Below, one piece after another: positions 3,047 to 54,830 of a stretch of DNA of 64,000 nt (within the stretch, counting starts at the first letter, position 1; the number at the start of each line of letters is the position of its first letter). Under the pieces are notes generated by a model. That model was not told where the DNA came from. It saw only the letters and a program-made list of their open reading frames with translations, and did no database searches. The position numbers and the translations under genes were made by a program. Source of the stretch: Octopus vulgaris. Lineage: Eukaryota. Where the stretch lies: positions 112,096,001 to 112,160,000 of the forward strand of contig OX597817.1 in NCBI GenBank assembly GCA_951406725.2, in the 5' to 3' direction.

Positions 3047-3857
3047 TTAGAAAGTTCATAAGGTTAAGTTGGAATCAATTATTATTATTAGGTGTATTAT
3101 ATTATTCTTATTAGATAAAGTATAAACAGTGGAAGGAGAAAGTTATCAAAAGAGAAATAATAGTGGAATTTAAAAAAATTAATATATCTTAAGATTATTG
3201 TAGTTATGTAGGAATGAAAAGGTATATAAATGAGGAATACATACATACATACATACATACATACATACATACATACATACATACATACACACATATACAT
3301 ACGCACACACATATACATATATATTTATGTATTTATGTACAAACATGCCCATGGGTACATACATATTACATGTGCTTAGTAGTAAGGATTATTGCAGTAG
3401 TTCATATTTTTCTTTTTATATAACTATAATAATTATACACAAACATATATATATTCATATAAGCATGTGATATGTTTTCTATTGAGGGCTTTAGACAAAG
3501 GTCCACAATAAGTGGGTTAGAGTTTATATTAATACCTGTCATATTGGTTGGTACTAAAAGTAATAAATTTCTGGATATTAATCAAGATACTTTATTATTT
3601 TTTGTTTATTGAGTAGCTGAAATCCTGCAGGAAGTGGGGAGGTTATGGTCAGTTCCGTAATCTAATTGGTTATCTATTGTTTTGAAAGGGCATGATTTTG
3701 TTATTATTGGTTAAGGGATAACTGATAACATAAACAACAAATTAGGCAAAAATGTATATAAATAAAACAAGCAAAATGTGGATGAATTTGTATACACACA
3801 CAAAATTCAATTTAGTATTAAATCAAATTTCACAATATAAATATATGATATATATAA

Positions 3858-5049: not shown

Positions 5050-5871
5050 GTTAAAGTGATATTACTAAGGGGATAATGTTTTAATATACTGCATATGAAA
5101 GATAAGTTATTACAAATTTATTAAAAAAAAACAGTTTATAATATTACATGTATCTGTTTAATTAGGGGAATCATTATATATTTACTAAATCATACAGGTA
5201 ATATATAGTGAAAATTATATGTTGGAAGTTATTTGGACCAAATGCAAATAAGGGACAAGATACCAAAAGTGACTGTACAAGTTGTTTCACTAAGTTATTG
5301 TTTATCGCTAAAATTTAGTCTTTAGTTACTAAATTAATGAACCAGCTCAATATATATCCTTATATATTCTCTTTTAATGAAACAGCTCAGTATTTATTCT
5401 TACATATTCTCTTTTATATATATATATACCTACATATTACTAGATTGTTATTTATTGCTAAAATTACTTTTAAAAATCTATATTTATCTTACCAAATGCC
5501 TCAAATGCAAGACCCCATGTAATAGTATTAAGTCACTTAAATAAAACCATCAGTCATTTAGTCCTTTAAAATATTTATCCGTCTATTTATTCACTTAATT
5601 ATTTTTAATGCTATATTTAAGAGGTGGGGGGATTTTTAGTTATAAATAGAATGAAAGGAGGTAACTCTGGTTAATTGAGGTCTATAATTATATAAATATA
5701 TTCAAAAATTTAGGTCAATTATTCACTCAATCAACTTATCAATCAGCCAATTAATTAATTAATCAATTTATTGGTATTGTAATGGGGTTGCATAGCAATG
5801 TCTGCATCCATATACATACATATACACATACAATACATACATACACATATGCAAACATAAACACATACAAC

Positions 5872-5916
<45 letters not shown>

Positions 5917-5921
5917 GCATA

Positions 5922-5979
<58 letters not shown>

Positions 5980-6111
5980 CATACACTCACATATATATAT
6001 CTATATCTATCTATCTATCTATCTATATATATATATATATATATACACGTATATATCTAGATTATTTATCTATGTATATTTATATACATATATATATATG
6101 TATATATATAT

Positions 6112-6146
<35 letters not shown>

Positions 6147-6199
6147 GATTATATTTATACATATATAAATATGATTTATATATATATATATATATATAT

Positions 6200-6499
6200 A
6201 AGAGGTTGGTTGGGAAAAATTCCTCATCCACCTTATTCCCCCGACCTTGCTCCTTCAGACTACCATTTGTTTTGTAGTTTACAGAATTATTTGGGGGGCA
6301 TAAATTTCACAAGCCAGGAGGTGGTCAAAACTGACATTTCAGAGTTCTTCGCTCTGAAATCAAAAGTGTTTCATATTGATGGGATTAAAAAGCTTGTAAA
6401 TAGATGGAAGGAAGTCATAAATAATCAGTTTAAATATAACATTTGATGACTTGTTTTCTTTATTCAAAATTTGGACAGAACTTATGGGATGACCAGATA
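6200..6499 (+). pseudogene. mariner-family transposase C-terminal fragment with probable right TIR
   Basis: [17 protein letters not shown]...[13 protein letters not shown], containing the mariner YSPDLAP motif. Ends ...aacttatgggatgaccaga followed by TA. Confidence 0.85.
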
Positions 6500-7116: not shown

Positions 7117-8412
7117 AGGGTTGCACAAAATAATGGAAACACCTTATAATTTGAAACAAATTTATTCTAATATGGGGTAGGACTACCTTTGGCATTAATT
7201 ACAGATTGAATTTTTCGAGGTATGGACTCGTACAAAGTTTGAGTTGTTTCAAAAGGAAATTTTGTCCATTCTTCAGCTAAAACATTTTCCAGTTCTTGTA
7301 GTGATGATGGTGGAAGATATTGACTCCTTATTTTTCTAATATGCACCTTAAATGTTAAATAATATTTAGATGAGAGTAGTGTGGGGGTCCAGATAAGATG
7401 TTCAACTTCACTAGAATGTCCCTCGTGCCATTCAGAAACAACTTCAGCTGTGTGAATTGGTGCATTACCATCGTGAATGATTGCCTTTCCCTCCAGAAAC
7501 AGTTCTGCAACCATAGGATGAATGTGATCAGATGAAATGCTTAAATAGTCTTGACTATTAATTCTGCTATGAAGGTAAACCATTGGGCCTGCAGATTTCC
7601 AAGGTATAGCCCCCCAAATCATCACAGATCCTCCTCCTTGTTTAACAGTTCGAAGAAGGCAGTCTGGGTCAAATGGTTCTTTTGGCTCTCTCAATATGTA
7701 TACTTGGTTGGTGGTTGGAAATAAGGTAAAGGATGACTTGTCCGAGAAAATATCATTCTTCCACTGCTCTAGGCACCAGTTCTGTAGGTTTTTACTCCAC
7801 TCTAAACACTTTGCAACATTTGTTTTTGAAATTAGTGGTTTTCTGATTGTAGCCCTCCTGTGAAATCCGTCTTTGTGCAGCTCCTGGAAAACATTTTTTG
7901 TGGAAACAGATTTCACAAAGTGTACATTAAGCTCTGTAATGTTGGGAGCTGTACTCAGTAATGTTGGGAGCTGTACTTTTGAGATCTTTTCGAACAATTT
8001 GCATTGGAGTCTGACAACCCCTATCTGAAAGTTTTGGTTTTCTTTCGGAGTTTTGTTTTGACGAGGCTTTTCCCTCTTTTTGAAAGGCTGTCATTACTTT
8101 TGAGACAATACTTCTTGATACACTAAACATTTCTGCTGTTTTTGTTATGATTGCGCCTGCCATACAGGTACCAACAATGTGACCTCTTTGAATGTCCGAT
8201 AGATCTGTCATTGGAATGAATTTTAATTACCTGCTTCTGATGATATCTGAAAAGAAACAACAATTTTAGCAAAATATATTAAGCAACACTAATAATAAAT
8301 TTAGCCCCCCCCCCCCAAAAAAAACAAAAAAACAAGCTTTTGATGGCTTTATAGTTATTTCAATATTATGATACTATGATGCTAGGTGCTTCATTATTTT
8401 GTCCAACCCCTG
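7116..8412 (-). mobile_element. Full-length but inactive Tc1-like DNA transposon
   Basis: About 29-bp TIRs: cagggttgcacaaaataatggaaacacct (7116-7144) and aggtgcttcattattttgtccaacccctg followed by TA (8384-8414). The transposase is split over ORFs 7927-8211 and 7167-7997 (IFSD, VMIWGAI and DGNAPIH motifs). Confidence 0.9.
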
Positions 8413-11027: not shown

Positions 11028-11112
11028 TATTATATTACATATATATTATCTATTATATATTTTATATAATATATATATTATATACAAATTATATATATAT
11101 TATATATATAAA

Positions 11113-12115
11113 TATCTTCTTTATCTTCTTTATCCCCGTCTGTCTTGATAGACAATGGGTTGCGCCAAGGGTGGGGCCTACTTTGATGATGTGCAGCGTC
11201 TGCTGTGACTGAACAGTCCAATTCTAGAGTGGCAGTCCTTGGTACAGTTGCTGCACACGAACATCGATGGGTACGTTTGGGGTGTTGCTGCAGTTGTCCT
11301 CCTCCTGTCCCGCCTGTCCAACCACAGCTGTGCTCTCCTCTCCTCAGCCATGGAAACGCCTTTCCTCACTGTCCGACGCCAGGCAGAGTGGTCAGCAGCT
11401 GTTTCCTCCCACGCGTCCACACAGATGTTGGCAGTTCTCAGGTCGCGCTTGCACACGTCCCTGTATCGTAGCTGTGGACGTCCCTTGGGTCGGGATCCCG
11501 TGGTGAGTTCGCTGTACAGGATGTCTTTAGGCATGCGACCGTCCTGCATGCAGCAGACGTGTCCGAACCAGCGCAGTCGTCTCCGCACGTGGAGGGCATA
11601 CATGCTTGGCATATTAGTCTGTTCCAGGATGGCTCCGTTTGGTACTCGGTCCTTCCAGGAGATGCCAAGGATCCGTCGAAGACATCGCATGTGGAAGCCG
11701 CTGAGGCGGCATTCCTGCCGGGTGTATGTTGTCCAGCTCTCGCTGCCGTAGAGTAGGGTGCTCAGCACGCAGGCTCGGTACACTGCGATCTTGGTGGTTA
11801 ATGTGAGCATGTTGTTTTCCCACACTCTCCTGGAGAGCTTAGCCATGGCAGCAGCAGCCTTCCCAATCCGTCTGTTCAGCTCCGGCTCGAGGGACAGGCT
11901 GCTGGAGACCGTCGATCCCAGGTAAGTGAACTCGTTCACCACCTGCAAGCTGTGGTCGCCGACACTGATGCTGGGGACCCCTCCGAGATCCTCTTTGCTG
12001 ACGATGCCGCCCTAACATCACACAACCAACCGGGTCTCCAGAGGCTGGTCAGCTCCCTGGCGGATGCCTGCCAAGAGTTCGGCCTTACCATCAGCCTGAA
12101 AAAGACAGAGATCAT
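11113..12115 (-). mobile_element. 5'-truncated RTE-clade LINE with inverted 5' segment (about 11985-12115 on +)
   Basis: Minus ORF 11178-11948 (FTYLGS...RRLRWFGHV...CSNCTKDCHSRIGLFSHSRRC), a 3' hairpin tgtct-atca-agaca and a (gataaagaa)n tail. The plus strand reads EILFADDAALTSHNQPGLQRLVSSLADACQEFGLTISLKKTEI. Confidence 0.92.
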
Positions 12116-12267
12116 ATAAATATATATATAGATTATATGTATATATATGTATATATATTATATACATATATACATGCATGTATATATATATATATATATA
12201 TATATGCATATTATATATATATTGTATATATATTATAGTATATATTATATATATACATCATATATAT

Positions 12268-12325
<58 letters not shown>

Positions 12326-12353
12326 CATATCATATATACAGAGTACATATATT

Positions 12354-15093
12354 ATGTTGTTGGCATCCTTTTTGTCTCGGGAGACAATGGAGTTGCGCAT
12401 AAAGTAGTCTAGTCCGGCTTTTACATTTCATGTCCTGATACATTTCCTGCTGTGGCTGTGTAGTCCTATCCTGGACAAACACTCCCTCTGGCAGGTACCG
12501 CAAATGTAGCGAAGACTGTTCCTGGCTGGTTGTAATGCCATAGTTTCTTGTTGACGTCTTTTCTTGTCTTTCCATTTCTCCTCTCTCTCTCTCTCTGTCA
12601 CTCCTTTGTATTCCCTCTTTTACGGTACGTCGCCAGTCTCCACGGTTGCCGGCAACTGCCTCCCAACCGCTAATATTGTGTTCCAGGCCTTCATGTCCCT
12701 TTTGCAAACATCCTTGTAACGTAAGAACGGTCTACCCCTAGACCTAGTACCCCTAGCAAGCTCTCCGTAGAGTATGTCCTTGGGGATTCTGCCATCTTTC
12801 ATACGGCTAACATGCCCAAGCCATCTCATACGTCTTTGTGTGAGGAGTGCAAACATGCTTGGTATTCCTGCTTGCTTGAGGACATCTTTGTTGGGGATAT
12901 GATTCTGCCATTTGATGCGGAGGATTTTCCGGAGGCAGCGCAGGTGAAAGATGTTTGGGCGACGCTCTTGGCGTGTGTATAGCATCCAAGTCTCACTTCC
13001 ATACAGTAGAGTGCTAAGTACACATGCCTGGTAGATCTTCATTTTCGTGGTCTTGGTCAGCTTATTGTTGTCCCAAGCCCGTTTGGAGAGTTGGGCCATC
13101 GCAGCAGCTGCCTTGCCAATGCGTATATTGAGCTCAGTGTCAAGGGGTAGGTTGTAGGTGATGGTAGAGCCAAGATAGGTAAACTTCTCCACCTCTTGTA
13201 ATCTGTGGTCTCCAATATGTATGTTTGGGATGTCCAATGTAGCCTGACCCATGATGTTGGTCTTCTTAAGGCTGATAGCTAAGCCAAAGTCATTACATGC
13301 TTGCTCAAAACAGTTAATGAGCCTTTGGAGGGCTTCTTCTGTGTGGCAGAGCGGCATCATCAGCAAATAACATCTCGTTGATCAGGACGTTTCTGATTTT
13401 GGTCTTGGCACGCAGGCGCGAAAGATTGAATAGTTTCCTGTCACTTCTACTGTGCAGAAACACTCCATCATCTGATGTCTGAAAGGCATGTGAGAGTAAG
13501 AGCGAGAAGAAGATGCCAAACAATGTAGGAGCGAAGACACAACCTTGCTTTACTCCGTTTTTTATTTGGAAGGCGGCTGATGTTGAACCGTTGTGCTGTA
13601 TGGTGCTTTGCATGTCATCATGGAAAGACTTGATGATCCTCAGCAGCTTTGGTGGACATCCGATTTTTTGGAGCAGGATGAAGAGGCCTGTTCTGCTTAC
13701 CAAGTCAAAGGCCTTTGTTAAATCAATGAAGGCCATATATAATGGCATTTTCTGCTCTCTGGACTTCTCCTGAAGTTGGCGTATGGAGAATATCATATCG
13801 ATAGTTGATCTGCTTCTTCTAAAGCCACACTGTGATTCCGGATAGATTTGAGAAGCAAGTAGTTGTAGCCTGGCCAGGATAACGCGGGCAAAGGTCTTTC
13901 CAACAGTGCTTAGAAGAGATATTCCATGGTAATTGTTACAATCACCACGGTCACCTTTGTTTTTGTAAAGCGTAATGACGTTAGCATCCCGCATATCCTG
14001 AGGGACTGTACCCTCTTCCCAGCACTGACACAGAAGCTCATGAAGGTGCCGAAGCAGGATGGTGTTTTTGCCAGCTTTGATGATCTCTGAGGGGATGCCG
14101 TCTTTTCCCGGAGCCTTGTTTCTTGGTGAGCTCTGCTATAGATGGTGGACTGTCAAGTTCGCACATGACTGGCAAGATCTTGACACTCTTGACTGCAGCC
14201 TCAGCCACTGTAGTCTCCCGTGAGTAGAGATCCTGGTAGTGCTCCACCCATCTATCCATTTGCTTGCTTTGATCCCTGATGAGATCTCCAGTAGTTGATT
14301 TCAGAGGGGCTGACTTGGTTGCAGATGGACCGAGGGCCTTCTTCAAGCTGGCATACATCCCACGGGTGTCGCCCCTGTCAGCAGCTGACTGGATACTCTG
14401 ACAGATTTCCTGCCAATACCTATTTGCACAGCATCTGGCTGTCAGTTGGGTTTTATTTCGTGCCTTTCTGAGTTCTTCGAGTGACTTTGTAGAAGAGTCA
14501 CTCTTGTATTGCATCAGAGCTGCATGCTTTGCTTCGACAACTGGCTCCAGCTCTGAGAGCCCAGCATCTGGGTTTTGCCTTTCTCTCATGCCGAAAGTAT
14601 CTATTTTAATGCTCGCGTGGGATCTGACCATGATTCGTGGCCCATTTGTGTTGGACACATTGGTATTGGCAACATGAATGACAATGGTCAGAGACTACTC
14701 GAATTCTGCACATACCATAACCTGTGCATCACAAACACATTCTTTACCAACAAGCCATCCCACAAGGCATCTTGGAGACATCCAAGATCTCACCACTGGC
14801 ATCAGCTGGATCTCATCATTACACGGAGATCCTTTCTGAATTCTACTCTATTGACCTGCAGTTACCACAGCGCGGATTGTGACACAGACCACTCACTAAT
14901 TAGAAGTAGGGTGAGGATTCTGCCTAAAAAAGTTCATCGCTCCAAGAAAGTGGGCCGACCATGCATTAACACTGCCAGAACCTCGGACCCTACACTGCAA
15001 AAATGTTTTGCTGCTTCTATCAAGGTTGGCCTCAGTAGCTGCCCAACCTCCTCTGCTGAAAGTAGGTGGAACTATATCAGGGAAGCTTTGTAT
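12354..15093 (-). mobile_element. RTE-clade LINE (frameshifted ORF) with inverted 5' endonuclease segment (about 14603-15093 on +)
   Basis: Minus ORFs carry YHGISLLS, FIDLTKAFD, GVKQGC, LFADD and FTYLGS, plus a 3' hairpin ttgtctc-cc-gagacaa. The plus strand reads FNARVG...NDNGQRLL...HQLDLI...DTDH (APE domain). Confidence 0.93.
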
Positions 15094-15167
15094 ATGACAT
15101 ATATATTATATATATATACATATTATATATATTATATATATACATATTATACATTTGTAGATTATAT

Positions 15168-34904: not shown

Positions 34905-36024
34905 ATCATCATCATCATCATCATCATCGTTGTCGTCTAACGTCCGTTTTCCATGCTAGCATGGGTTGGACGGTTCGACTGGGGTCTGGGAAGCCAGGAG
35001 GCTGCACCAGGCTCCAGTCTGATCTGGCAGTGTTTCTACAGCTGGGTGCCCTTCCTAACGCCAACCACTCCGTGAGTGTAGTGAGTGCTTTTTACGTGGC
35101 ACAGGTGCTAGGCAAAGCTGGCAATGGCCATGATCGGTTGGTGCTTTTTATGTGCCACCGGCACGGAAGCCAGTTGAGGCGGCACTGGCAATGGCCACGT
35201 TCGGATGGTACTTTTTACATGCCACCGGCACTGGTATCACAACTATAATTTCCATTGATTTTTTTATTGATTTCGATTTCACTTGCCTCAATAGGTCTTC
35301 ACAAGCAGAGTTTTGTGTCCAAAGATGGAAAGGTATGCATAAGTGGAGTGGCTACATCCCAAGTAAAGGCCACGGGTTATGGTCTCACTTGTCCTGCCGG
35401 GTCTTCTCACGCACAGCATATTTCCAAAGGCCTCAGTCACTAGTCATTGCCTTGGTGAGACCTAATGTTTGAAGATCGTACTTCACCACCTCGTCCCAGG
35501 TTTTCCTGGGTCTACCTTTTCCACAGGTTCCCTCAACCGCTAGGGTGTGGCACTTTTTCACACACCTATCTTCATCCATTCTCGTCACATGACCATACCA
35601 GCGCAGTCATCTCTCTTGCACACTACAACTGATGCTTCTTAGGTCCAACCTTTCTCTCAAGGTATTTACACTCTGTCGAGTATGAACACTGACATTACAC
35701 ATCCACTTGTGCTGGTGGCATGTGAAAAACATTCGAGCAAGGTCTTTGCCAGTGCCACTGGACTGGCTCCTGTGCAGGTGGCACATAAAAAAGCACCATT
35801 TGAGTATGGCCGCTGCCAGTACCGCCTGACTGGCCCTCGTGCCGGTGGCACGTAAAAGCACCCACTACACACTCAAAGTGGTTGGCGTTAGGAAGGGTAT
35901 CAAGCTGTAGAAACTCTGCCAGATCAGATTGGAGTCTGGTGCAGCTATCTGGTTCACAAGACCTCAGTCAAATTGTCCAACCCATGCTAGCATGGAAAGC
36001 AGACGTTTAAACGATGATGATGAT
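34905..36024. mobile_element. Two copies of the (ATG)n-tailed RTE-type LINE 3' end joined in opposite orientation, tails outward
   Basis: The left copy (minus, to about 35706) includes WMCNVSV...LRWYGHVTRMDEDRCVKK...GRPRKTWDEVV. The right copy (plus, about 35707-36024) is 3'UTR ending (gat)n. Confidence 0.82.
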
Positions 36025-48563: not shown

Positions 48564-50916
48564 GTAAGTATGATGCCACATAACAGAAAATAAATTTTTG
48601 TGTTTTTGTTGTTTCAGAATGCAAATTATGCAACATCCATAAATCATATTTATGAATGTTGCATGAGGAATAGTATTTGTAATTCTATGTGACCACAAAT
48701 GATTTCAAAATGAAAATAGAAATTTAAAAACAAGCACATAAATATCTCTAACTGACTTAAATTGCTTTTTCTTTAAATATTTTTTGAAATATCATTTTTG
48801 ATAATGCACCTATTCACTATGAGAACAAAGGCATACATGTTGTTTTAAATGTTTACTAGTTTTTTTTTTTTACCTCATTTTAATCCAGTAGAGGACTATT
48901 CTTCATGTATAAATTATGCTTGAAAAACTATAGGTATTCATGTTAAAGCAATAATCAGTCCTGTAAGAGTTACAAAAGTAACACCCTCAGCTAATATCCT
49001 CAGAAAATTAACATTGGGTATCTTTGCTTTACTTAACCCTAAAAAATAAATAATAAATAAAATAAAATAAAAACTGGAAGGTACTACAACTGTATGATGA
49101 GCTTTTTGTCTCATTATTTGCTTGATGGAAACTGAACCAGGCAAGTTCACATTGATATATTTTACTGGAATGGCAAGCGGGCAGAATCATTAGCATGTTG
49201 GACAAAATGCTTAATGGCATTTCTTCTGGTTCTGTATGTTCAGAGTTCAAATTCCACTGAGGTCAAATTTGCCTTTAATATTTTCAGGGTTGATAAACTA
49301 GCTACCAGTTGAGCACTGGAGCCAATGTAATTGACTTACCCAGTCCTCTCAAAATTGCTGTCCTTGTGCCAAAATTAGGGAAAAAATTACGAATGAGATA
49401 TTTTATATCAGATAAATCTTCTTGCACTTAATTCCACTTTGGAATCATTTTTCTTGCTTTGAAATGGCAGAATCTCATTTTGAAATCCATAATATTCCTT
49501 TGAAAGTAGCGAAGTCTCACTTCAAAATATAATCTGCTCACTCACAAGTAAAAAATACTCCAGCAATCATGCTCATATCCTCCATAAAGAAAATTGTCAT
49601 TTATCAAGTAGATATCAATCAAGTACACATACTCATACTCTAACATACACGTATGCATGCACACACATGAGTACTTGTGCAACACCTGCACACACACACA
49701 CTAGTTGATCAGCCTGCTAAAGGTAGTGGGTAAATTCCCTCAAATACTCCTTATTTTAACAAAGAAAGGGCATGTTGGACAGTGTGGTACTCGATATGTA
49801 AAAAATGGATTGGTTATGGTTGGAACACCTTTAATCATAGGGCTGCTTGTTAGAGTTGACCTGAGTCTAAACTACAACTTTGAAAATTTGTTATTCAAAA
49901 CTGAGAGTTTGGTTCTAAACATGATCTTATTGTGTATGATTAAGTCAAAATCATGGTTTCATGCAGTAATGATTGTGATTGCTTACTTACAATTTTCAGT
50001 TGATATAAAGCAAAATAACCACTGAAGATAGCTAATGATGACTTGTATGCCTGAATGAAACCATGGTGTAGATTTAATTATATAGTTACCTACATGTATG
50101 TATAACAGACTATACTTTAAGTGCTTATTAACTACTTCAATATTTATTCATATAAATAAAAATAGACGCATACATATATGTATATGTGTGTGTATGTGTG
50201 CAAGCATGATTTTGTAGTTAAGAAGTTTGCTTTGCAACTACATTGTTCTGAGTTTGAACCCACAGCATAACACTGTAGGCAAGTATCTTCTATCATAGAC
50301 TTGAGCCAACCCAAGTGAAATTTTGAAGATAGAAACTCTGTCTGTGTGTATGCACATATAATGAGCAAGTTCAGGATTAGTTTTACGCCTAAGTTGATTT
50401 TAATTACTGATATCAATAAGTACCGAGCAAACAACTGGGGTTCCTTTTGAAGTTTGTGTTCCAGCATGTCTGTAATTCAGTGACTGAAACCAATAAACGA
50501 AGAAAAGGAAAAAAAAAAAAATAAAGACATGCAATACTTATAGGTAGCTTAATAAATACACATCTGTCTTGCATCACCATGCTGTTTGCTAGCTTGAAGA
50601 GAGTCTGGTTGTAAACATCCAAGTTCAGTCATGCTGAGGCTGCAAGTATTAGAGATCTTGTCACATGGAATACTGCTGTGTTGCAAATCTGTGCAGTGTG
50701 TCAGCTTGTCACAAAAAACATAAAACAAATGAAGATTGTGGTTATGGATATAGTGATGATGTTAGTGATAGATGTAGAGATTGAGTAGTGACATGTGTAT
50801 ATTTTTAGTTATAGTCTTATATAGCTCCATTAATCTTGGACTTTAAAACAGTTGGTGAATTTCATTGAAAATCTCTAATACTCACCAGTAAATTATCTAA
50901 TATTAATTTTTTACAG

Positions 50917-51106
50917 GTTGAAGTAATAAATAGAAGAGGAAGGCCTCCTCAGATAACACCACGGCATCAATTTCCACAGCAGCAGCAGCAACTGAGCCAG
51001 CAGCAAAAATTGTCTCAGCAACGACAACCACATCACCACCACCAACAACAACAACAACAACAACAACAACAGCAGCAACATCATCAGCACCATCAACATC
51101 ATCATC

Positions 51107-51149
<43 letters not shown>

Positions 51150-51396
51150 GTTGCTGTTTCAACAACAATTTGAGCAATTACAGCAACAACAACAACATCA
51201 AAGGCAACGGCGTGTACCGCAACCGACCTTGCCAATACTTCCACAACAGCCACCATTACCACATCATAAAAGACATTTACAACCACCTCCACCTGTTGAA
51301 AATGACTCTGAGGAGATTTCTTTTGATAAAGCTGTGGAACTTTTGGTTGCAAGAAATTCTTGGCCTATTGTTGTTTTAGAACCACTTGATCCAGAG
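50917..51396 (+). CDS. NIPBL: NIPBL exon, 480 nt, polyQ/H tract plus PxVxL motif, phase 0/0
   Basis: ttttacAG|gtt...gag|GTATGT. Reads VEVINRRGRPPQ...polyQ...EEISFDKAVELLVARNSWPIVVLEPLDPE; PIVVLEPL aligns to human KPVVVLQKL. Confidence 0.88.
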
Positions 51397-52625
51397 GTAT
51401 GTCAAGTTTTCATAACATTTTAGCTAAACCAATTATGTTTTATATTTTTAACTGGTTTCTTTTTTTAACATCATTGTTACATTTTTTGTAATTTAGAAGC
51501 AGCTATGTTAATTACTTCACATTAACAGGGATTGTTTCATTCACTCATTTTTTAAATGTATTTTTCATAAATGAATTTGTGTTTCTTAATTAATTTGTGT
51601 TATTAATGTGTATCTAATGAAGTGAGAGAGTAAGTAAATATTCTTGGAAGAGTTTCAGTTTCACTGAGTTTAATAGTTTGCTAGATTGAAGCTTTTGTGC
51701 TTATATCAGGCACAGACATGTCTTGTGAATGGAATTTAGTAGACAGAAAATATGTAAATATTTTATAGTGAAAGATGTAAACATAACAAAAAAGGGATAA
51801 ACTAGTAGCTATGAATGTAATTTTGATATGTGCTTCACCCAAGTTGGACAACTATCTCTTGTCACTTCCACTATCATAAATATAGTGAACCAGTAACTGG
51901 CTTGTAGGAATCATGTTGCTTACAACAGGCTGGTTACAGGATTATATTGATATAAAAATGCAATATAAAAAATAAATTTTTAAATATCTCCATGCTGGCT
52001 CCACTGTGTTTATGATCAAGGTAATTTACTGGCTCGGCCAGCTTAGTTGTAAATATCTGTTGAGTAGGTATACATCACTGCCAAGTTATACGAGTACTGT
52101 ACAAGAGTGTTTCTGAGATAGGAGTAAGAAATACGAAACCAGATTATTGTACCTTCCAAAAGAAATTTTGAAATTAGTAGGATTGCTATTCTTTCTTCAA
52201 CAACTTTTTAAATATAAAGTGATTAAGAAATGTGAGATGAAATTCATGAGTTGTGGTGGCTGAGAATTAAAGTTTTGGACTCATAGCCTATAGGATATTT
52301 GTTTAAAGTTATTTAAAGGCTTATTTTGAAGGAAATTTTATTTAATCAATCCAGTTGAGTGAAAAAAGCCTGGAATGTATGTAGATGTGACTTAAAAATA
52401 GATACTTGCTCCTATAGTATATATGCAAATGTTAGAGGTTATAAGGCCATCCAGTCTTTGCTGATCTAACTATTAAGATATATAAAAATGAAAAGAAATG
52501 ATTTAAGATATATACACTTTCTATATGTTTCTTTCCAACTGTATCTCATCAAATTTATTGTTCTGTTATCTGTTCCACTTTGTTCTGAGAATACATGCAT
52601 AAATATTATTTTTTTCTCTTTGTAG

Positions 52626-54329: not shown

Positions 54330-54830
54330 CACATTATCAGACGAAAGACCATTGTTATCTATGTTGGTTTTTGACAATAATCCTGCTAGATGATGCATTA
54401 TACTGCTCTTGTTGCTGTAGAGCTTAACTGATTTAAGATTGATTGCTGCCATTGCAGAGACATGATTATCAATGGAAAGGGATGTAGCTATTGCTTCTTT
54501 TGAGTCAGTAAGCCTGTAGATGAAAACTGAGAGGACAGTATTGGCTTTGTAATCAGGAAGAATCTAACTGTTAGGTGAAATAGATTGCTATCCAGTGTGG
54601 GTAACTGTTATTAAAATCTGCTTACCATTATATTGTGTCATGGAATATTCTTTTCTGTTTATATACCACCTCTTCATTCAGCAGAAGAATTTCTATCTCT
54701 TTTCTATGAGTTTCAGAAATAACATTTTTTCTAATTGAACTGCTAACAAAATCATTCTATTTGGAGATTTTAATGCCAAAGTAGATTGTGATTGCAATGT
54801 GTGGTTTTGCATAGGACACTATGTTGTATA
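54330..54830 (+). pseudogene. Decayed RTE-like APE endonuclease fragment
   Basis: IGFVIRKN, YYTTSSFSRR and IILFGDFNAKVD traces. Confidence 0.55.

What the first reader, a model, noticed from the sequence alone, without database searches (positions are those of the whole stretch)
11113..12115. RTE LINE copy 1 has a twin-priming-type 5' inversion with an apparent 8-bp junction overlap
Seen: the 3' part runs on minus (QDLGGVPSISVGDHSLQVVNEFTYLGS...). The immediately preceding coding sequence (EILFADD...SLKKTEI) runs on plus from about 11985 to 12115 and ends at AT, merging with TA-rich flank. Bases 11985-11992 (gagatcct) read sensibly both ways (EIL on plus, QDL on minus). Established: this geometry, with the 3' end of the inverted piece at the flank and nearly contiguous with the start of the non-inverted piece, is the twin-priming signature described for mammalian L1. 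To my knowledge it is little described for RTE elements.
Basis: partly seen in the sequence, partly recalled or inferred. Interest (0 to 1): 0.7.

Follow-up and report, generated by a model that had tools for sequence, protein, structure and literature searches.

The report
Twin-primed inversions in RTE retrotransposons
A young, dead copy of an RTE-like jumping gene has its front 131 bases flipped between two identical 10-base target repeats, and about one in twelve sampled copies of two such families in this genome is flipped the same way, likely because both cut DNA ends began copying the same RNA, a process documented mainly for mammalian L1.

Summary
The inversion is in the assembly. Against 63 colinear sister copies, 11985-12115 is a flipped 131-bp piece, 11 nt are lost, and an exact 10-bp target-site duplication (11106-15, 12114-23) brackets the copy. 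The '8-bp overlap' is only 2 bp exact (6 of 8 matching). Both parts carry the same subfamily markers. Family census: 15 of 150 insertions have a 5' inverted piece (12 twin-priming geometry, 3 fold-back-like), and none has an internal inversion. The neighbouring copy, of a second RTE-like family, is flipped too; 8 of 85 of its sampled sisters are, five starting in one AU-rich 5'-UTR site. A CR1-type family showed 0 of 39 short copies (weak contrast, p about 0.05). Twin priming is the best explanation (0.78). No laid read or contig showed this junction, so misassembly is excluded only indirectly. RTE membership rests on architecture, not on a tree. My paper searches found no RTE case, but three key papers were not held. 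This scan has noted RTE inversions before in other genomes. It is a known mechanism in another clade, now with rates and a priming hot spot.

The parts
11106..11115 (+). Target-site duplication, 3' side of copy 1 (ATATAAATAT)
   Evidence: exact repeat of 12114-12123
11116..11133 (-). 3' tail, two ATAAAGAAG units; purine-rich tails are the rule in the family
11134..11986 (-). Non-inverted 3' part, from family position 3189 to the 3' end (end of RT, C-terminal region, 3' UTR)
   Evidence: 16 mismatches in 856 nt to the family majority
11985..11992 (.). Inversion junction: 2-bp exact microhomology (11985-86) inside an 8-bp stretch matching at 6 of 8
11985..12115 (+). Inverted 131-bp piece, family positions 3047-3177 (EILFADD…KKTEI); 11 nt (3178-3188) lost between it and the 3' part
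12114..12123 (+). Target-site duplication, 5' side of copy 1; its first 2 nt (AT) are shared with the inverted piece (inferred second priming site)
12347..12355 (+). Copy 2 (second RTE-like family): TSD ATATATTAT, 3' side, next to a (CAA)n tail
12356..14605 (-). Copy 2 non-inverted part (aa about 309-1043 of the family 1 ORF)
14603..15100 (+). Copy 2 inverted piece (aa about 145-304); 3-nt internal microhomology, 1 nt lost
15101..15109 (+). Copy 2 TSD, 5' side (9 bp exact; 11 bp if one AT unit slipped)

Best explanation
Copy 1 is a single 1-kb insertion of a young RTE-like LINE with a flipped 131-bp 5' piece, an 11-nt loss and a 10-bp target duplication, and it likely arose by twin priming during insertion. 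Inferred steps: the element's endonuclease nicked an AT-rich target, and the first strand primed reverse transcription at the RNA tail. The second strand was cut 10 nt away before that cDNA was finished. Its 3' end (…AT) paired with an internal AU at family position 3176-77 and primed a second cDNA back to 3047. The first cDNA stopped within 11 nt of the second primer. The two cDNA ends then joined through 2 exact (6 of 8 imperfect) base pairs, and the second cDNA's letters were kept. Shown: structure, breakpoints, TSD, common subfamily, recurrence. Inferred: the order of cuts, priming on RNA, and the joining enzyme.
For: Breakpoints and TSD. The inverted piece lies wholly upstream of the non-inverted start, so it is not a copy of the retained cDNA. 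Marker 3091A in the inverted piece is linked to six markers in the 3' part, e.g. 25 of 26 versus 1 of 41 for 3460G. Family 1 census: 15 of 150 insertions have a 5' inverted piece, all at the 5' flank and none internal; 12 have twin-priming geometry, and 10 of these 12 have breakpoints within 50 nt. Four of the 12 overlap by 3-17 nt, which one cDNA cannot supply without re-synthesis (inference). Family 2: window copy 2 and L210 are inverted, and 8 of 85 sampled copies have this geometry. Five of the 8 start within about 13 nt of one AU-rich 5'-UTR site, over 1.3 kb upstream of where the sense part begins, two with a 12-14-bp TSD and 3-nt microhomology. Clear non-(AT)n TSDs cluster at 8-13 bp, near the 10-12 bp RTE peak and the 10-20 bp range tied to L1 inversions in PMC4245944 (passages).
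Against: No listed read or contig bridged the junction in 8 runs: two raw-read runs laid nothing, contigs showed only the colinear form, and 169 records were not shown. The TSD is AT-rich with a 3-6% chance background. Outer microhomology is only 2 nt, and an AT/TA start is also common in plainly truncated copies (26 of 129, versus 5 of 15 inverted). Family 1 priming sites are not predicted to be more open than the RNA's average (0.18 versus 0.17). Several inverted copies have untemplated bases or no clear TSD (L051, L083, L064, L129). Three copies are fold-back-like, so a second route to inversions operates in this family.
Confidence: 0.78

Rival explanations
1. One cDNA ran to position 3047, folded back on itself through the 6/8 stem, primed its own second strand, and the hairpin loop was opened next to the stem; this would give the same product without priming on RNA.
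For: cDNA snap-back is described for R2 insertions (PMC11371274 passages) and self-annealing inversions near L1 sites (bioRxiv 10.1101/2024.12.14.628481 passages). Fold-back-like copies exist here: L019, L175, L079, and a fold-back step in L320.
Against: The stem is predicted to form with pair probability about 0.003 in the 160-nt cDNA. A cut at a random place in the loop would give wide gaps, yet 10 of 12 are within 50 nt and four overlap. The family 2 hot-spot copies would need near-full-length cDNAs with loops of several kb removed.
Confidence: 0.1
2. Dual priming: the two DNA ends primed on two different RNA molecules.
For: Proposed for L1 in PMC2837659 (abstract). It would fit the large-gap copies (L064, L185, L317, L320 and the five hot-spot copies).
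Against: An 11-nt gap and shared subfamily markers in copy 1 point to one template.
Confidence: 0.04
3. Misassembly or a chimeric read.
For: The locus sits between (TA)n tracts, and none of 8 runs showed the junction.
Against: An exact TSD, a clean 11-nt loss, and the same architecture at different breakpoints in over 20 loci of two families but in 0 of 39 CR1-type copies of the same assembly.
Confidence: 0.04
4. An ordinary 5'-truncated copy whose first 131 bp were inverted later, or two separate insertions back to back.
For: A later inversion with one break exactly at the 5' end would give the same order of pieces (reasoning).
Against: It needs a break exactly at the element end with the TSD intact; 0 of 150 insertions have an internal inversion; the inverted piece has no tail of its own; both parts are of one subfamily.
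Confidence: 0.04

Closest known systems
5'-inverted (twin-primed) mammalian L1 insertions; model of Ostertag and Kazazian 2001 (not held; seen as described in PMC2912911 and PMC4245944)
   Same: Inverted piece at the 5' flank, nearly contiguous breakpoints, TSD, microhomology at the outer and inner junctions.
   Different: Single-ORF element without ORF1 or a poly(A) tail, AT-microsatellite targets, non-mammalian host. Rate 19 of 234 (8%; families 1 and 2, window excluded) against 639 of 2068 (31%) for human and chimpanzee L1 (PMC2912911 Table 2).
One 5'-inverted Nimb-2_DR insert in chicken DT40 cells (PMC4245944, passages)
   Same: A non-L1 LINE with about 12-bp TSDs giving a 5' inversion.
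   Different: One event in a foreign host cell; that paper saw inversions otherwise only with L1 in human cells and none with ZfL2-1. Here they recur in genomic copies of two families.
L1 insertions with 5' poly(T) from twin or dual priming (PMC2837659, abstract and outline)
   Same: Short antisense pieces containing a T-tract at the 5' end of a truncated copy.
   Different: There the inverted piece is the poly(A) tail; in family 2 it comes from an AU-rich site beside an internal A-tract of the 5' UTR.
cDNA snap-back junctions of R2 (PMC11371274, passages)
   Same: Antisense element sequence at the 5' junction; fits L019, L175, L079.
   Different: Snap-back duplicates retained sequence; copy 1's inverted piece is not duplicated.
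RTE-clade LINEs such as SR3 and Bov-B (PMC1291365, PMC6007223, PMC13295347; passages)
   Same: One ORF with AP endonuclease and RT, short repeat tail, 10-12-bp TSD, AT-rich targets.
   Different: No description of 5' inversions in them: 'inversion' and 'inverted' occur 0 times in two, and only in a reference title in the third.

Membership tests
Twin-primed 5' inversion | Inverted piece abuts the 5' flank with its 3' end; its 5' end joins the non-inverted part | tested here: met
Twin-primed 5' inversion | Breakpoints nearly contiguous (small loss or duplication) | tested here: met
   11 nt lost; 10 of 12 family 1 cases within 50 nt
Twin-primed 5' inversion | One TSD brackets both parts | tested here: met
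   10 bp exact; chance background 3-6%
Twin-primed 5' inversion | Microhomology between target end and RNA at the outer junction | tested here: met
   2 nt; short and not specific to inverted copies
Twin-primed 5' inversion | Microhomology at the inner junction | tested here: met
   2 nt exact, 6 of 8 imperfect
Twin-primed 5' inversion | Both parts from one template lineage | tested here: met
   six linked markers
Twin-primed 5' inversion | Junction present in raw reads | tested here: inconclusive
   no listed record of 8 runs bridges it
Twin-primed 5' inversion | Second cDNA primed on RNA by the second-strand end | not testable with these tools
   needs a biochemical or cell assay; family 2 hot spot is indirect support
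RTE clade LINE | Single ORF with AP endonuclease then RT, no ORF1 | tested here: met
   1044-aa ORF in L134 with PF03372 and PF00078; other frames of the 4060-nt majority hold at most 103 aa
RTE clade LINE | Short repeat 3' tail and TSD peak of 10-12 bp | tested here: met
   criteria from passages
RTE clade LINE | Groups with named RTE elements in an RT tree | not tested
   none of the 120 listed homologues (62-75% identity) carries a clade name; no labelled RTE reference was on hand
L1 clade | ORF1, poly(A) tail, close likeness to L1 ORF2p | tested here: not met
   no ORF1 or poly(A); only about 100 bits over aa 411-694 to L1 ORF2p

The most novel reading that the evidence does not exclude
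Twin priming is a routine insertion outcome (about 8%) of ORF1-less RTE elements in an invertebrate germline but rare in CR1-type elements of the same genome, so it depends on the element's cut geometry rather than on L1 or mammalian host factors; and one family carries a fixed AU-rich hot spot in its 5' UTR where (AT)-rich target overhangs prime the second cDNA kilobases from the first.
Probability: 0.45. Interest if true: 0.6.

Novelty: new member of a known kind. Interest (0 to 1): 0.42.

Why it matters
The 5' inversion is treated in the papers I read as nearly an L1-in-mammals trait (PMC4245944, PMC2912911), and why is open: one proposal is that a 3' overhang of 10 nt or more must be exposed before the first cDNA is finished. 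Young RTE-like families with roughly 10-12-bp TSDs, no ORF1 and about 8% inversions fit that idea and argue against a need for ORF1 or mammalian factors. The family 2 hot spot gives a defined RNA site to mutate. The single copy in the window is dead, and I found no sign of a function.

Tried and rejected
Reads: one run search and two layings (8 of 24 listed runs). Two raw-read runs laid 0 reads; the 'opposite strand' joints in X15 and X16 are the colinear family form, not support for or against this locus. RNA accessibility at family 1 priming sites: no signal. The 8-bp perfect overlap and 'QDL': rejected. An 11-bp exact TSD for copy 2: rejected on re-reading, 9 bp exact. L141's distant 24-nt inverted hit (about 900 nt upstream), the 542-572 hits in the CR1-type family (in nearly every long copy, read as an internal inverted repeat) and L341's 16-mer (outside its TSD) were not counted as inversions. 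L284 was kept apart as ambiguous. The CR1-type family is not a clean short-TSD control, because its TSDs in (AT)n cannot be measured. The Atlas look-up gave no answer. [quoted passage not shown] No supplements were read; they may hold RTE cases.

Full report
Observation. The window holds the 3' part of a LINE on the minus strand and, abutting it, the preceding coding stretch on the plus strand at 11985-12115. A search of the own genome scored 40 of 103 candidates and returned 30 loci. In 28 of the 29 other loci the two stretches are colinear (three with small variants at the join); L012 has an internal deletion there. Against a majority reference of 4060 nt built from real copies, the plus piece is positions 3047-3177 and the minus part starts at 3189, so 11 nt are lost. 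Exact overlap at the inner junction is 2 bp. Over 8 bp the two parts match at 6 positions and the genome carries the inverted piece's letters; given the 2-bp match this has probability 0.048. The minus strand reads EDL and the family QDV. An exact 10-bp repeat, ATATAAATAT, stands at 11106-15 and 12114-23, and its first AT on the right is also the last AT of the inverted piece. The 10-mer is in 4 of 149 other tails and at 0 of 149 other 5' junctions. Under looser matching the window's flank fits 5 of 149 foreign tails and its tail 9 of 149 foreign flanks. The TSD is therefore good but not decisive evidence.

The element. Full-length copies are about 4.1 kb. L134 has a 1044-aa ORF with endonuclease and RT domains. 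Tails are purine-rich repeats and targets are mostly (AT)n. Of 41 truncated copies with a non-(AT)n TSD of 8 bp or more, 29 have 8-13 bp. This fits RTE as described in passages of PMC1291365, PMC6007223 and PMC13295347. The 120 listed homologues are 62-75% identical and carry no clade name; L1 ORF2p matches only weakly. No tree with named RTE elements was built, so I write 'RTE-like'. The copy is young: 1 difference in 131 nt and 16 in 856 nt from the majority. A marker in the inverted piece is linked to six markers in the 3' part, so both parts come from one subfamily; 63 census copies are colinear across the junction. Earlier scan notes call this genome an octopus; I did not check that.

Family 1 census. 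An exact 30-mer about 380 nt from the 3' end has 154 hits. All were located and examined. I dropped three segmental duplicates (L150, L152, L166) and one copy at a contig end (L156), leaving 150. Fifteen have a 5' inverted piece, always at the 5' flank; none has an internal inversion. Twelve have twin-priming geometry: ten with gaps of -17 to +46 nt and two (L064, L185) with the inverted piece from the RNA's 5' end, 2.5 kb away. Three (L019, L079, L175) duplicate retained sequence and look like fold-backs. Without the window copy the rates are 11 of 149 (7.4%, interval 3.7-12.8%) and 14 of 149. By my manual reading 6 of the 11 have outer microhomology of 2-4 nt (p 2e-5 against 1/16), but truncated copies also begin with AT or TA more often than background (26 of 129 against 6.7%; inverted 5 of 15). 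The census misses diverged copies, very short ones and inverted pieces under 12 nt.

Family 2. The next element in the window, 63% identical in protein at family level, is also 5'-inverted: plus 14603-15100, minus from 14605, 3-nt inner microhomology, 1 nt lost, 9-bp exact TSD. Its family has 452 exact hits. I examined the first 87 listed and dropped one duplicate (L244) and one unresolved copy (L301). Eight of 85 have twin-priming geometry and one (L284) is ambiguous. Only L280 has a small gap (12 nt). In L252, L275, L298, L310 and L261 the antisense piece starts within about 13 nt of one site in the 5' UTR and runs into an internal A-tract; the sense parts start at different positions, so these are separate events. 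That site and the adjacent A-tract are the most AU-rich 25-nt windows of the RNA (11 of 4124 windows, all there), and part of it is predicted open. L252 and L310 have 12-14-bp TSDs with 3-nt microhomology directly beside the antisense piece. The clustering was found after the fact; a rough chance figure is 7e-8. L210, outside this sample, is inverted with a 76-nt gap.

Comparison family. A young family that I label CR1-type from recalled RT motifs has 450 exact hits. Of 98 distinct loci only 39 showed their 5' end within the fetched flank, and 0 of 39 were inverted. Size-matched RTE-like copies gave 12 of 121 and 5 of 52, fold-backs and the ambiguous copy included; Fisher p 0.047. This is weak: my reference lacked that element's 5' part, long copies were unseen, and its TSD lengths cannot be read in (AT)n.

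Reads. Of 24 listed runs I laid 8. Two raw-read runs laid nothing; the listed contigs of the six others showed only the colinear form, and 169 records were not shown. A private insertion would give this result, and so would an artefact.

Mechanism. Twin priming explains the TSD, the small gap, both microhomologies, the overlaps and the hot spot (0.78). A single cDNA that folds back and has its loop opened gives the same product at one locus, but the needed stem is predicted at pair probability about 0.003, and it does not explain small gaps or overlaps (0.10). Dual priming may account for large-gap copies (0.04 for copy 1). Misassembly and later inversion get 0.04 each. Against my reading: no accessibility signal at family 1 sites, untemplated bases or no clear TSD in several inverted copies, and no read support.

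What is known. PMC2912911 (passages and part 2 of 5) gives the model and 30.9% inverted L1 in human and chimpanzee. PMC4245944 (passages) found inversions only with L1 in human cells, bar one Nimb-2 insert, proposed that long overhangs are needed, and quotes a 10-12-bp TSD peak for RTE. PMC4476161 (passages) says non-L1 clades formed U6 chimeras only by template switching. PMC11371274 and bioRxiv 10.1101/2024.12.14.628481 (passages) describe snap-back and self-annealing. PMC2837659 (abstract and outline) describes inverted poly(A) tails and dual priming. PMC5389967, PMC13174262, PMC9115989 and PMC13282606 (term passages) showed no RTE inversion. Nine searches (listings) showed no report of twin priming in RTE. 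The founding paper and two comparative papers were not held, most subscription journals are outside the library, and I read no supplements. The scan's own notes list six RTE cases in other genomes, one with about one in ten long copies inverted; these are unchecked and not independent.

Verdict. A real structural feature of the assembly, best read as twin priming by an RTE-like LINE: a known mechanism in a clade and host for which I found no printed report. The added value is the census in two families, the weak contrast with a CR1-type family and the 5'-UTR hot spot. Interest 0.42.

Noticed in passing
window 12347-15109: The neighbouring RTE-like copy of a second family is also 5'-inverted (498-bp piece, 1 nt lost, 3-nt inner microhomology, 9-bp TSD). 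Two adjacent inverted copies are expected rarely at an 8% rate.
   Followed up: yes
L252, L275, L298, L310, L261 (5' junctions): Recurrent short antisense pieces from one AU-rich 5'-UTR site beside an internal A-tract in family 2; L261 then switches to a second antisense piece that includes a roughly 181-bp tandem repeat from upstream of the element's 5' end.
   Followed up: partly
L317:3556-3588 and L320:3524-3565: Two independent family 2 copies have antisense pieces that start at 908-912, stop at the same base (880) and join sense parts at 3195 and 3214; L320 folds back through its own TSD before joining.
   Followed up: partly
L064, L185: Family 1 copies whose inverted piece comes from the RNA's 5' end, 2.5 kb from the sense part; L185 runs to position 2.
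   Followed up: partly
L051, L083 (outer junctions): Extra bases repeat the first triplet of the inverted piece (CCT CCT), as from slippage at the second priming.
   Followed up: no
L059, L141, L148, L165, L169, L073, L176: Same-orientation internal deletions or template jumps in 7 of 150 family 1 insertions; L169 joins the first 583 nt to position 3551 between a 13-bp TSD.
   Followed up: no
families 1, 2 and the CR1-type family, genome-wide: All three insert mostly into (AT)n or related microsatellites.
   Followed up: partly
L091 5' end: Tandem repeats of the first roughly 19 nt of the element at the 5' end of a full-length copy.
   Followed up: no
window 50869-51420 (+): Glutamine- and histidine-rich open frame of 184 aa, possibly an exon of a host gene.
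   Followed up: no
window 5796-6443 (+) and 7170-8090 (-): Open frames that look like mariner and Tc1-type transposase fragments (recalled motifs, not tested).
   Followed up: no
window 35406-35702 (-) and 54402-54710 (+): Fragments of more distant LINEs (27-28% protein identity to the family 1 ORF).
   Followed up: no
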